NCBI GenBank assembly: GCA_017999675.1
Contig: JAGNLL010000002.1
Coordinates: forward strand, 66,918 to 130,917
Reading direction: 5' to 3'
DNA from: Rickettsiales bacterium
Lineage (GTDB): Bacteria; Pseudomonadota; Alphaproteobacteria; Rickettsiales; UBA1997
Length of the DNA: 64,000 nucleotides
This document shows positions 32,027 to 33,904 of the stretch, piece by piece; position 1 is the stretch's first letter; each line of letters begins with the position of its first letter. The notes beneath the pieces are model-generated. The model was given only the letters and a program-made list of their open reading frames with translations, ran no database searches and had not been told where the DNA came from. The position numbers were made by a program, and so were the translations under genes.

Positions 32027-33904
32027 GTGAAAACAAAAAATTCGCAAAAAAATCAGATTAAAGAAAACCTTGTTGCAACGCTGCAGGCGTTGGTTGCGGA
32101 TGAAAAGCTGCGGGTAGAATTTGACGAGGGGTGTGAAAATAATTTTTTTGCGTGGAATCAAAATTTGGTGGAAGGTGAGAGAAGTGTAGTGTTGCCAGAA
32201 CTCCCAAACCTACAAAACCCGTCGGTTGAGCGGAGTCGAAACCAACGGAAGGTTCCTGCTGCGTCAGGTTTGCAGCAGGAACCTTCCGTTGGTTTCGACT
32301 CCGCTCAACCGACGGTGACGTATTCGTCGCGAGCGGCGGCGGATTTGGCGGCTTGCTACTTGCTGGCGCACGACAAAAAGTTGCACGACGAAAAAAAATT
32401 TGAGCCGCAAGAGCAAAAGTTTTTTGACGAGTTTGAGAAAATTCGGGTGGTTGCGGCGGTGAAAAATTCTTACCTTGGTGTGGTGAAAAATATTTTAAGC
32501 AAGGTTGAAAGCGACATTTTTAGCGGTTCTACGAGCCTTTCGCTAATTTTGTTAAAAGAGATTTTTGGCAGTGAGGTTTTGCCGCGCACCGCAGAATTTG
32601 CGGCGGAGTTAGAAGAAAATTTAAACAAAAAAATTGTTGCTGAAATTAAAAAATTGTCGCGAGACGTGGAAAATCAAAGTGACTTTGCGCTAGGTGTGGC
32701 AAGGGTTTTAGAGTTGTTGAAAAACGAAGAAGAATCTGAAAGTAAACAAGACGAAGAAGAAAAATCGCAAGAAAAACCAAATGAAAAATCGCCAGACGAA
32801 TTAGAAAATTCGGGCACTGAAACTGTTGAAACAGAAGTAGAAAATAAATTTTCTCAAGGTGAAGAAGAGGCTGACACGCAAGTGCCAATTGAACAAAAAA
32901 CTGCCGATTTTAAAGAAGACGATTCGAAAGGGGACGTGGCGGTGAAGCTAGATGCGCCAAGCTTTGACGAAGACAAAATTGAGTTCAAAAATCCTTACAA
33001 AATTTTTACCAGCAAGTTTGACGAGGTGATTTTTCCACAAAAATTAATTGGCAAAAACGAGCTCGAACTTTTGCGCGACCAGCTTGATTTGAAGGTGGCG
33101 AAGCTTGGTGGTATTTCGAAAAGAATGAGTTTGAAGCTGAAGAGAAAATTGCTTTCGAAGAAAAATTCTTTTGTTGAACGCGACTCTTCACGTGGGCTTT
33201 TAGACCGCAAAAAACTAGTGCGGCTGGTAATTGACCCCACAGTTGAAGACATTTGGGTGACTGAAAAAAGCCACGAATACCAAGACACCGCACTTACAAT
33301 TTTGCTCGACAATTCGGGTTCAATGCGTGGCAACCCAATTGTAATGAGTGCGCTGGCGTGCGAAATCATTGCCGAAATTTTGGAAAAATTTTTGGTAAAA
33401 ACTGAAATCATTGGATTTACCACCGCTGATTGGAAAGGCGGCAAGGCGCGAAAATTGTGGGAAAGTTCGGGTCGCGAGCAAAACCCCGGAAGGCTCAACG
33501 AGCTGCGCCACATTGTTTACAAGCACTTCAACCAAAGTTTGAAAAAGTCGAAAACTAATTTGGGCCTAATGCTCAAAGAAGGAATTTTGAAAGAAAATAT
33601 TGACGGCGAAGCGCTGCTTTTTGCGCGCGCTCGCCTAATGCAGCGTAGCGAAAAGCGCAAAATTTTAGTGGTAATTTCAGACGGCACGCCAATTGACGAC
33701 TCAACGGTTTCAGCCAATGACGGCGACATTTTAAGCGACCATTTGCGTCACGTAATTAACAAAATTGAACAGCGTGGCAAAATTGAAATTGTAGGCATTG
33801 GCATTGGCCACAGCACGGACGATTTTTACCGCAACTCAATTGCAATTAAAAATTTGGATGAGCTTGGCGACACAATGATTGCTAAGATTGCCGAGTTGTT
33901 GTGA
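32027..33904 (+). CDS. cobT: CobT-like vWA-domain protein (aerobic cobaltochelatase CobT family)
   Basis: 625 aa. It has an acidic central linker and a C-terminal vWA domain with a MIDAS motif (TILLDNSGSMRG) and ILVVISDGTPID. The overall layout matches the CobT found in Rickettsiales. Confidence 0.72.
   Translation: MKTKNSQKNQIKENLVATLQALVADEKLRVEFDEGCENNFFAWNQNLVEGERSVVLPELPNLQNPSVERSRNQRKVPAASGLQQEPSVGFDSAQPTVTYSSRAAADLAACYLLAHDKKLHDEKKFEPQEQKFFDEFEKIRVVAAVKNSYLGVVKNILSKVESDIFSGSTSLSLILLKEIFGSEVLPRTAEFAAELEENLNKKIVAEIKKLSRDVENQSDFALGVARVLELLKNEEESESKQDEEEKSQEKPNEKSPDELENSGTETVETEVENKFSQGEEEADTQVPIEQKTADFKEDDSKGDVAVKLDAPSFDEDKIEFKNPYKIFTSKFDEVIFPQKLIGKNELELLRDQLDLKVAKLGGISKRMSLKLKRKLLSKKNSFVERDSSRGLLDRKKLVRLVIDPTVEDIWVTEKSHEYQDTALTILLDNSGSMRGNPIVMSALACEIIAEILEKFLVKTEIIGFTTADWKGGKARKLWESSGREQNPGRLNELRHIVYKHFNQSLKKSKTNLGLMLKEGILKENIDGEALLFARARLMQRSEKRKILVVISDGTPIDDSTVSANDGDILSDHLRHVINKIEQRGKIEIVGIGIGHSTDDFYRNSIAIKNLDELGDTMIAKIAELL
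32219..32315. repeat. 97-bp perfect palindrome (44-bp arms, 9-nt loop) in frame within cobT (family E)
   Basis: ccgtcggttgagcggagtcgaaaccaacggaaggttcctgctgc (32219-32262) is the exact reverse complement of 32272-32315. It is translated as PSVERSRNQRKVPAASGLQQEPSVGFDSAQPT. Confidence 0.9.

What the first reader, a model, noticed from the sequence alone, without database searches (positions are those of the whole stretch)
32219..32315. 97-bp perfect palindrome inserted in frame within cobT
Seen:
- 32219-32262 is the exact reverse complement of 32272-32315 (44-bp arms, 9-nt loop).
- The element begins on a codon boundary and has no stop in the used frame.
- It is translated as PSVERSRNQRKVPAASGLQQEPSVGFDSAQPT.
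- It lies immediately before a segment that looks like conserved CobT sequence (SRAAADLAACYLLAHDKKLHDE).
- It is unrelated in sequence to families A-D in this window.

Established: Rickettsia palindromic elements are known to insert in frame into protein-coding genes and to be tolerated as extra surface peptide segments (Ogata et al. 2000).

Inference: this is an RPE-like, coding-compatible mobile palindrome of a different family. The flawless arms argue for a recent event or for active maintenance.
Basis: partly seen in the sequence, partly recalled or inferred. Interest (0 to 1): 0.7.

Follow-up and report, generated by a model that had tools for sequence, protein, structure and literature searches.

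The report
Palindromic repeat translated inside CobT
A 97-base perfect DNA palindrome from a small family of dispersed hairpin repeats sits in frame in a floppy surface loop of a CobT-like protein of an uncultured Rickettsiales bacterium, which is the behaviour already known from Rickettsia palindromic elements and so is a new example rather than a new kind of thing.

Summary
Positions 32219-32262 and 32272-32315 are perfect 44-nt inverted arms around a 9-nt loop. The element starts on codon 65 of a 625-aa CobT-family gene and is read as the stated 32 residues.

It is a lineage-specific insertion. The nearest orthologue (P0002) and most of the 102 aligned homologues lack it. AlphaFold places it in the only low-confidence stretch of a confident N-terminal domain.

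It belongs to a real repeat family. About 14 sites carry it in a related lake lineage, 11 of them intergenic. Only this one copy occurs in 74 kb of the source genome.

Each arm is itself a small hairpin: a 7-bp stem that covaries among copies, around a conserved 16-nt loop. Single units also occur. The element is therefore built like a REP doublet (REPIN) and behaves like an RPE.

It has no target-site duplication, no GTAG or CGTC tag, and no transposase nearby.

The same CobT loop carries this family in three lineages and other palindrome families in further lineages, so it is an insertion hot spot.

Orthologous copies change on both arms together, which supports arm-to-arm correction.

Verdict: new member of a known kind, of modest interest.

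The parts
32027..33904 (+). Host gene: a CobT-family protein of 625 aa, with a CobT N-terminal domain and a CobT_C/VWA domain.
   Evidence: ORF listing. Pfam CobT_C at 2.3e-68 and CobT at 6.5e-14. TIGR01651 scores 390 bits, below its 759-bit cut-off. It matches the solved CobT structure 9uka_G. It is 100% identical to P0001, from a MAG named 'Rickettsiales bacterium'.
32219..32315 (.). The whole palindromic element: 97 bp, two inverted hairpin units around a central stem-loop. It is translated as CobT residues 65-96.
32219..32262 (.). Left arm, 44 nt: CCGTCGG / TTGAGCGGAGTCGAAA / CCAACGG / AAGGTTCCTGCTGC.
   Evidence: Positions 1-41 are identical to arms of copies in other genomes, for example L012 and L005.
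32219..32248 (.). Left unit (REP-like). The 7-nt stem halves are 32219-32225 and 32242-32248, with 6 of 7 positions pairing in this copy. They enclose the family's conserved 16-nt loop at 32226-32241.
   Evidence: Arm alignment A1. Covariation of the stem among 15 distinct arm types: 86 of 105 Watson-Crick pairs against 77.9 +/- 1.9 when partners are shuffled, reached in 2 of 10000 shuffles. Single units occur alone at L005 ~4440-4475 and L006 5924-5953.
32263..32271 (.). Central loop GTCAGGTTT. This is the only asymmetric part of the element.
   Evidence: Loop and spacer length and sequence vary among family copies, whose total lengths are 97-118 bp.
32272..32315 (.). Right arm, 44 nt, the exact reverse complement of the left arm. 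The right REP-like unit is 32286-32315.
   Evidence: Its last 25 nt are present in an independent Logan assembly contig. It is read in the same frame (QQEPSVGFDSAQPT) as the equivalent arm in L006 and L021.
32198..32330 (+). Coding region for the hypervariable CobT linker, between the conserved Leu-Pro (P57) and Arg102. The element landed here.
   Evidence: Linker length is 2-85 aa with a median of 14 among 102 homologues. AlphaFold gives pLDDT below 50 for residues 64-95 and above 90 on both sides. Other palindrome families occupy the same linker in L018, L019 and L020.

Best explanation
The element is one copy of a dispersed, non-autonomous palindromic repeat family. Its architecture is two inverted hairpin units (7-bp stem, conserved 16-nt loop) joined by a central stem-loop. 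That makes it a REP doublet (REPIN-like) in build and a Rickettsia palindromic element (RPE) in behaviour.

A copy of about 97-99 bp landed in the part of cobT that encodes a disordered surface linker between the N-terminal beta-hairpin and the first long helix. Two of the three reading frames of the element are open and the loop tolerates any length, so the insertion survived. It is now translated as about 32 extra residues with no role in the fold.

The insertion post-dates the split from the nearest sampled relative. It is most likely independent of the copies of the same family in the cobT linker of two other lineages. I read that linker as a permissive hot spot where palindromic repeats of several families accumulate.

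The flawless arms are best explained by youth combined with arm-to-arm templated correction: hairpin or template-switch repair that copies one arm from the other.

The mobilising enzyme is unknown. The absence of target-site duplications and the reliance on hairpins make a single-strand DNA (HUH/RAYT-like) or replication-slippage route more likely than a DDE transposase.

Shown here: the anatomy, family membership, insertion status, loop location and concerted arm changes. Inferred: independence of the three cobT insertions, the correction mechanism and the mobilisation route.
For: Family:
- A 20-mer from the arm hits four contigs of one related MAG.
- A two-arm pattern hits five contigs from two lake samples.
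- blastn-short and context analysis give about 14 distinct sites, 11 of them intergenic.

Architecture:
- Intra-arm stem covariation shows T:A, C:G and G:C at the middle pair, reached in 2 of 10000 shuffles.
- Lone units exist. One orthologous site is a single unit in L005 and a doublet in L006.

Insertion:
- P0002 (L025, about 80% nt identity) has a 13-aa linker. The window's linker would be about 12 aa without the element.
- The solved CobT structure also has a short linker.
- On the NJ tree the window's CobT sits next to insert-free P0002 and in a different clade from P0013 and P0010.

Loop: pLDDT is below 50 only for residues 64-95 within the N-terminal domain.

Hot spot:
- The same family lies in the linker in the window, L005/L006 and L021, with the first arm read in three different frames.
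- Different palindrome families lie in the linker in L018, L019 and L020.
- Repeat-type peptides appear in many other homologues.

Concerted arms:
- The L005 and L006 cobT copies differ at 5 of 104 positions, and positions 7 and 98 are pairing partners that changed G:C to T:A.
- L001 and L011 are about 98% identical genomes, yet a TTGAGC/CCCGCGC block differs on both arms.
- The window copy is the only one with 44 of 44 arm identity.

No target-site duplication: flanks are CAAAAC | TGACG in the window and A-run | T-run elsewhere.

Precedent:
- In-frame RPEs in Rickettsia (PMC3767692).
- Intragenic REP dimers encoding 20-30 aa, and RPE-4 and RPE-6 being REPs (PMC3733652).
Against: - Only one copy is visible in about 74 kb of the source genome, even with a covariance model run with filters off. 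None is visible in 22 kb of each of two closer relatives. The donor copy for a recent insertion is therefore unseen.
- In all three lineages the second arm is read in the same frame. The right junction lies 11-14 nt before the conserved Arg codon. That would also fit one old insertion.
- No RAYT, IS200-type or other transposase was found. Pfam was run on 30 window ORFs. tblastn with E. coli RayT was run against 288 kb. The second is a weak test.
- Translation of the insert and its harmlessness are inferred, not measured.
Confidence: 0.78

Rival explanations
1. One ancient insertion. The element entered the cobT linker once, before the window lineage and the P0013 and P0010 lineages diverged. 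It has been inherited vertically, lost in most descendants, and kept nearly unchanged where it is retained. On this view it serves cobT, either as a peptide or as an mRNA hairpin.
For: - The same family lies in the same linker in three lineages.
- The second arm is in the same reading frame in all three, and the right junction lies 11-14 nt from the conserved Arg codon.
- In the window genome and in L021, the cobT copy is the only copy seen.
Against: - Close relatives of the window gene (P0002, P0004-P0009, P0011) and of P0013 (P0029, P0014) lack it. That would need many precise losses.
- The window copy is no closer to the cobT copies of L005/L006 than to unrelated intergenic copies such as L012.
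- P0010 is nearer to P0013 on the tree, yet its copy is far more decayed (79% arm complementarity) than the window's.
- Left junctions and first-arm frames differ among the three lineages.
- Between L005 and L006 the element evolves at the background rate: 5 of 104 differences against about 94% identity in the flanks.
Confidence: 0.14
2. Exapted regulatory hairpin. The perfect 44-bp stem in the cobT mRNA acts as an RNase III site, a translational roadblock or an attenuator that tunes CobT levels. The perfection of the arms is selected at the RNA level.
For: - The stem is extremely stable, -102.8 kcal/mol.
- Compensatory changes keep the stem in related copies.
- Most family copies sit between genes with an A-run and a T-run on either side, like bidirectional terminators.
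Against: - The window copy has no T-run after the stem, and no terminator is called there.
- Covariation is equally explained by DNA-level hairpin correction or by recognition by a mobilising enzyme.
- Most CobT homologues do without any hairpin.
- No Rfam family matches above threshold. The only hits are generic miRNA-precursor hairpins.
Confidence: 0.06
3. Assembly artefact. The palindrome was produced by fold-back chimeras or by mis-joining of contigs in the metagenome assembly.
For: Short-read assemblers handle these palindromes badly. Independent contigs break inside them.
Against: - The reading frame is preserved across the element, and both flanks are cobT.
- A second assembly carries the last 25 nt of the right arm joined to the same cobT sequence at 100% identity.
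- Homologous elements sit in cobT in three unrelated assemblies.
Confidence: 0.02

Closest known systems
Rickettsia palindromic elements (RPE-1 to RPE-8; Ogata et al. 2000, as summarised in PMC3767692 and PMC3733652)
   Same: - Host order: Rickettsiales.
- A palindromic repeat of about 100 bp.
- Inserted in frame in a housekeeping gene without breaking it.
- Translated as an extra peptide in a surface or disordered segment.
- No target-site duplication seen, and no linked transposase.
   Different: - No sequence relationship was detected. The 20-nt core is absent from every Rickettsia genome among 185,579 species representatives.
- At 97 bp it is at or below the RPE size range of 100-150 bp.
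- The family is mostly intergenic: 11 of about 14 sites.
- The only gene it was seen in is cobT.
REP doublets / REPINs, including the GTAG- and CGTC-tagged REP dimers (Bertels and Rainey, from my own knowledge; Di Nocera et al. 2013, PMC3733652)
   Same: - Two inverted short hairpin units that can fold separately or as one long hairpin.
- Lone units that look like remnants of doublets.
- Variable spacers and heterodimers.
- Location mostly just downstream of genes.
- Occasional intragenic dimers that encode 20-30 aa.
   Different: - There is no conserved GTAG or CGTC tag. The CGTC in CCGTCGG varies to CGCC, GGTG, CGTT and CTTC among copies.
- The unit has a 7-bp stem and a 16-nt conserved loop. 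CGTC REPs have 8-9-bp stems and 4-5-nt loops.
- There is no CCA tail.
- No RAYT gene was found in the DNA available.
Bacterial MITEs such as Correia/NEMIS and ERIC (reviewed in PMC10969869)
   Same: A small, non-autonomous, hairpin-forming repeat that can be co-transcribed with genes.
   Different: - No target-site duplication.
- The element is palindromic over its whole length, not only at terminal inverted repeats.
- No related full-length insertion sequence was seen.
Bidirectional intrinsic terminators
   Same: Most family copies read as A-run, GC-rich hairpin, T-run, and lie between genes.
   Different: The cobT copy in the window lacks the T-run and is not called as a terminator. It also lies inside a coding region.

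Membership tests
Rickettsia palindromic elements (RPE) | Palindromic repeat of about 100-150 bp that can fold into a long hairpin | tested here: met
   The element is 97 bp with 44-nt perfect arms and folds at -102.8 kcal/mol. It is slightly below the quoted size range (PMC3767692).
Rickettsia palindromic elements (RPE) | Inserted in frame in a pre-existing ORF without destroying it | tested here: met
   It starts on codon 65 and the frame stays open. Orthologues lack the segment. It lies in a disordered loop.
Rickettsia palindromic elements (RPE) | Many dispersed copies in the same genome | tested here: inconclusive
   There is one copy in about 74 kb of the source genome. A related lineage has about 1 copy per 5-7 kb.
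Rickettsia palindromic elements (RPE) | Sequence similarity to one of the RPE consensus families | tested here: not met
   An exact 20-mer of the most conserved core found no true Rickettsia genome among the GTDB species representatives. The test uses exact words only, and no RPE consensus sequences were available for alignment.
REP doublet / REPIN | The unit is a short imperfect palindrome (hairpin) | tested here: met
   Each arm has a 7-bp stem with covariation around a conserved 16-nt loop. Lone units have perfect stems, for example L005 ~4440-4475.
REP doublet / REPIN | Two units in inverted orientation forming a larger hairpin, with singlets as remnants | tested here: met
   One orthologous site is a singlet in L005 and a doublet in L006.
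REP doublet / REPIN | Conserved GTAG or CGTC terminal tag (PMC3733652) | tested here: not met
   There is no GTAG. The CGTC inside CCGTCGG is not conserved among copies. Stem, loop and tail dimensions differ from the published CGTC families.
REP doublet / REPIN | A cognate RAYT (IS200/IS605-like Y1 transposase) gene in the genome, usually flanked by the REPs | tested here: inconclusive
   No Y1_Tnp was found among 30 window ORFs. tblastn with E. coli RayT against 288 kb of held DNA found nothing. The gene between the two L002 copies is a housekeeping-type ORF that I read by eye as trpD-like; it was not searched against Pfam. Whole genomes were not searchable.
MITE (DDE-transposase dependent) | Target-site duplication flanking terminal inverted repeats | tested here: not met
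   Flanks are CAAAAC | TGACG in the window. Other copies have inverted A-run and T-run flanks rather than direct repeats.
Intrinsic terminator | GC-rich hairpin followed directly by a T-run on the transcribed strand | tested here: not met
   No terminator is called at 31800-32800. The 3' flank is TGACGTA. Other family copies do have T-runs.
Integron attC site | RYYYAAC at the 5' side and GTTRRRY at the 3' side of an imperfect palindrome, next to gene cassettes | tested here: not met
   The element carries GTTGAGC at the 5' side and GCTCAAC at the 3' side, which is the opposite order. It lies inside a conserved gene. No integron integrase was identified. The only tyrosine recombinase in the window (11021-11956) has the Pfam domains of the general phage-integrase family, and I read it, untested, as Xer-type.
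CobT (cobaltochelatase subunit, TIGR01651) | Full-length match above NCBIfam's equivalog cut-off | tested here: not met
   It scores 390 bits against a 759-bit cut-off. Domain architecture and the PDB match are CobT-like. I therefore call it CobT-family and do not assign the enzymatic role.

The most novel reading that the evidence does not exclude
The CobT linker is a targeted landing site, not merely a permissive one. On this reading the same hairpin-repeat family was captured there independently in three lineages, each time with the second arm in the same reading frame and the right junction 11-14 nt from the conserved Arg codon. That would imply site- or structure-specific insertion, or selection for the encoded acidic peptide. 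It would go together with a self-correcting palindrome whose arms are kept perfect by intramolecular templating, in a genome where the family is otherwise nearly extinct.
Probability: 0.15. Interest if true: 0.55.

Novelty: new member of a known kind. Interest (0 to 1): 0.3.

Why it matters
In-frame palindromic 'selfish DNA' inside proteins has been described mainly for Rickettsia and a few REP-rich bacteria. Four points here add to that picture.

- The habit extends to uncultured, probably free-living or protist-associated Rickettsiales-like lineages, with unrelated repeat families.
- One disordered loop of a conserved protein has been colonised repeatedly, by at least four families.
- The RPE-like behaviour is linked to a REP-doublet architecture.
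- Closely related genomes show arm-to-arm concerted change.

These points are useful for annotation, because such inserts inflate proteins and break assemblies. They are also useful for thinking about how proteins acquire new loops. None of this changes what is known about the kind of element.

Tried and rejected
- **Rfam**: only sub-threshold generic hairpin hits (miRNA precursors).
- **tRNA or tRNA-like origin:** ARAGORN finds only tRNA-His at 12800-12876. The resemblance of GGTTTCGACTCC to a T-arm has no supporting stem.
- **attC site:** the core motifs are in the wrong order and the element lies inside a gene.
- **Viral contigs:** no match.
- **Flavobacteriales hit L003:** a single 20-mer match with no palindrome, so chance.
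- **RAYT or other transposase:** nothing in 30 window ORFs. Nothing by tblastn with E. coli RayT.
- **Gene between two L002 copies:** a housekeeping-type ORF, trpD-like by eye and not searched against Pfam. It is not a transposase-like ORF.
- **L009 copy:** it seemed to lie in a 387-aa ORF, but the overlap is a spurious N-terminal extension of a gene I read by eye as lpxD. I count that copy as intergenic.
- **Peptide search:** the three element reading frames were searched against 5.8 billion proteins to find other in-frame copies. Only 2 candidates shared words and none scored.
- **Extending the source genome:** only 10 kb beyond the left edge was gained. Two look-ups failed because the exact products are not on record.
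- **Recombination tract from a P0013-like cobT:** rejected, because the flanks of the window copy are unlike those of L006.
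Full report
**1. The observation**

The palindrome is exactly as described. Arms 32219-32262 and 32272-32315 are 44 nt and 100% complementary, with a 9-nt loop.

- The arm never occurs in 100 dinucleotide-preserving shuffles.
- As RNA the region folds at -102.8 kcal/mol, against -40.6 +/- 3.8 for shuffles (z = -16.4).
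- The host ORF is 32027..33904 on the + strand and encodes 625 aa.
- The element starts 192 nt (64 codons) into that ORF. It is read as PSVERSRNQRKVPAASGLQQEPSVGFDSAQPT and supplies the first base of Val97.
- The host protein has Pfam CobT and CobT_C/VWA domains. It matches TIGR01651 at 390 bits, below the 759-bit equivalog cut-off. It also matches the solved CobT structure 9uka_G. I call it a CobT-family protein.
- It is 100% identical to a protein of a MAG named 'Rickettsiales bacterium' (P0001).
- An independent Logan assembly contig equals window 32291-37079 at 100% identity. It begins inside the right arm and ends inside another palindrome. The palindrome is therefore in the reads and is not an artefact of one assembly. 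Assemblers break at these structures.

**2. It is an insertion in a disordered loop**

- In an alignment of the 40 best homologues, the segment between the conserved 'VxLP' and 'RAAxDLAACYLL' is hypervariable, and most sequences lack anything like the 32 residues.
- Among 102 homologues this linker is 2-85 aa long, with a median of 14.
- The nearest relative lacking the element is P0002 (locus L025, about 80% nucleotide identity). Its linker is 13 aa. The window's would be about 12 aa without the element.
- The solved CobT also has a short linker.
- An AlphaFold2 model built on 102 sequences gives pLDDT above 90 for residues 11-60 and 101-240. Residues 64-95 fall below 50, lying between strand 53-57 and helix 97-114.

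**3. It belongs to a repeat family**

- A 20-mer from the arm hits four contigs of one MAG, CAMCME01. That MAG is labelled 'Rickettsia typhi', which is doubtful. There is also one chance hit in a Flavobacteriales MAG that has no palindrome.
- A two-arm pattern hits five contigs from two lake metagenomes. It hits no viral contigs.
- The MAG and the lake contigs are 94-98% identical in nucleotides, so they are essentially one lineage.
- blastn-short and context analysis give about 14 distinct sites. Eleven are intergenic. Apparent ORF overlaps in L002 and L009 are spurious N-terminal extensions of genes I read by eye as trpD and lpxD.
- The three intragenic sites are all in the cobT linker: in the window, in L005/L006 (P0013, 66% aa identity to the window protein), and, much decayed, in L021 (P0010).
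- In the source genome I could examine 64 kb plus a 10-kb extension. Neither blastn-short nor a covariance model of the arm unit run without filters finds any copy besides the two cobT arms.
- No copies occur in about 22 kb of each of two closer relatives.
- The P0013 lineage has about one copy per 5-7 kb.

**4. Anatomy**

- Each arm is itself a hairpin. The terminal CCGTCGG pairs with the internal CCAACGG around the family's most conserved segment, TTGAGCGGAGTCGAAA (alignment A1).
- Among 15 distinct arm types the middle pair is T:A, C:G or G:C, and another pair switches from C:G to A:T.
- Watson-Crick pairing is 86 of 105, against 77.9 +/- 1.9 when stem halves are shuffled among arms. Only 2 of 10000 shuffles reach the observed value.
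- Lone units exist. At one orthologous site L005 has a single unit where L006 has a doublet. The difference equals a deletion between the 7-nt direct repeats that the architecture creates.
- Most copies are flanked by an A-run on the 5' side and a T-run on the 3' side, and none has a direct target-site duplication.
- The window copy has CAAAAC on the left and TGACG on the right, and is not called as a terminator.
- This is the build of a REP doublet or REPIN as described in PMC3733652: units that fold alone or together, singlets as remnants of dimers, variable spacers, and occasional intragenic dimers encoding 20-30 aa.
- It lacks the GTAG or CGTC tag, the published stem and loop sizes, and the CCA tail.
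- No RAYT or other transposase was found in the window or by tblastn in 288 kb of held DNA. The second is a weak test.
- Rfam and tRNA searches were negative.

**5. Arm maintenance**

- The window copy is the only one with 44 of 44 identical arm positions. Most of the others are perfect only over the outer 29-39 nt and asymmetric near the loop; four copies already differ within the two outermost positions.
- Between the near-identical genomes L005 and L006 the cobT copy differs at 5 of 104 positions, which is about the background rate. Positions 7 and 98 are pairing partners that changed together from G:C to T:A.
- Between L001 and L011, which are about 98% identical, a TTGAGC/CCCGCGC block differs on both arms.
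- So the arms evolve in concert. This fits hairpin-templated or template-switch correction, or selection on the stem. Perfect arms therefore do not prove youth on their own.

**6. One insertion or several?**

On an NJ tree the window's CobT groups with insert-free P0002, then with P0003, P0004, P0007 and P0009. P0013 and P0010 lie in another clade, among insert-free P0029 and P0014.

Against a single old insertion:
- The left junctions differ among the three lineages, and the first arm is read in three different frames.
- The window copy is as similar to intergenic copies such as L012 as it is to the cobT copies of L005/L006.
- P0010's copy is far more decayed than the window's, although P0010 is nearer to P0013.

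For a single old insertion:
- All three read the second arm in the same frame.
- The right junctions lie 11-14 nt from the conserved Arg codon.
- The cobT copy is the only copy seen in the window genome and in L021.

I favour independent insertions into a permissive hot spot (confidence about 0.78 for the overall explanation). I keep a single ancient insertion as the main rival (about 0.14).

**7. The hot spot**

- The same linker carries unrelated palindromes in L018 (P0003), L019 (P0025, nested) and L020 (P0030). The L020 element is of the 'KQVQDD...HPELDSGS' type, which also sits nested inside a copy of this family in L004.
- Many other homologues have linker peptides typical of translated palindromic repeats.
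- Relatives also carry palindromes inside the neighbouring aminotransferase gene.
- In-frame palindromes are thus a general habit of this group, as in Rickettsia (PMC3767692, PMC3733652).

**8. Verdict**

The element is a new sequence family of a known kind: an RPE-like, in-frame palindromic repeat with REP-doublet architecture. The points of some interest are the recurrent colonisation of one CobT loop, the concerted change of the arms, and the apparent rarity of the family in the source genome. The mobilisation mechanism and the donor copy remain unknown.

Noticed in passing
window 17423-17554, 37050-37145, 56527-56636: Three copies of another palindromic family (TAGGTCCCCGAGCAAAG...CGTCGTCGAGGGGCCCGAAG), with arms of 43-60 nt that are 88-100% complementary. 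All are intergenic, and the arm centre varies between copies.
   Followed up: partly
window 43345-43468, 46075-46182, 48873-49014, 55825-55926, 60452-60555: Five copies of a third palindromic family (GAATAACCACCCCAACCCCTCCTTCAAAAGGAGGGG). Each arm contains its own perfect 9-bp hairpin. All copies are intergenic.
   Followed up: partly
window 10923-11002: A perfect 30-nt inverted pair whose inner ends read ...GACG / CGTC... and whose outer ends read CCAT. It looks like a head-to-head dimer of the CGTC-tagged REPs described in PMC3733652. It lies next to a tyrosine-recombinase (phage-integrase family) gene at 11021-11956.
   Followed up: no
window 12800-12949: tRNA-His (12800-12876) is directly abutted by a 36-nt-arm imperfect palindrome at 12875-12949.
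   Followed up: no
window 22404-29612 (- strand): A 2402-aa ORF lies between gyrB and the aminotransferase gene. It is absent from that position in the syntenic loci L006, L018 and L025. It appears to be a lineage-specific giant gene.
   Followed up: no
window 33950-36060: Two ORFs of 509 aa and 193 aa with no Pfam match sit between cobT and the YidX_N-like and PBP_like_2 genes. They are absent from that position in L018 and L025. This may be a lineage-specific insertion. The 509-aa protein is rich in low-complexity acidic and Ser/Gly tracts.
   Followed up: no
window 30949-32022: A DUF1016_N protein gene ends 4 nt before the cobT start. The pairing is conserved in L018, L019, L021 and L025 but absent in L006. 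Its C-terminal half has no Pfam hit at the threshold used.
   Followed up: no
L018 8184-8335; L025 8224-8350: Palindromes lie inside the called aminotransferase genes of two relatives. The L018 one has 53-nt perfect arms and the L025 one has 26-nt perfect arms. Those genes are 438 aa and 441 aa, against 382-386 aa in L006 and the window. These are further in-frame palindrome insertions in this group.
   Followed up: partly
L004 2440-2578: A copy of the cobT-type family is interrupted after its first arm by a palindrome of the 'AAACAAGTTCAGGATGACA' (KQVQDD) family. That same family occupies the CobT linker in L020.
   Followed up: partly
L001, L002, L004, L005 (CAMCME01 contigs): The MAG is titled 'Rickettsia typhi isolate MsE-30apr19-74'. 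It is 94-98% identical to lake-metagenome contigs and is rich in palindromic repeats. PMC3733652 reports that R. typhi lacks the REP families it surveyed and cites literature that the species lacks repetitive sequences. The species label looks wrong.
   Followed up: partly
L024 and L017 ends (window 32291, 37079, 56607, 60480): Contigs from the independent Logan assembly of the same organism start or end inside palindromic repeats. These elements fragment short-read assemblies.
   Followed up: yes
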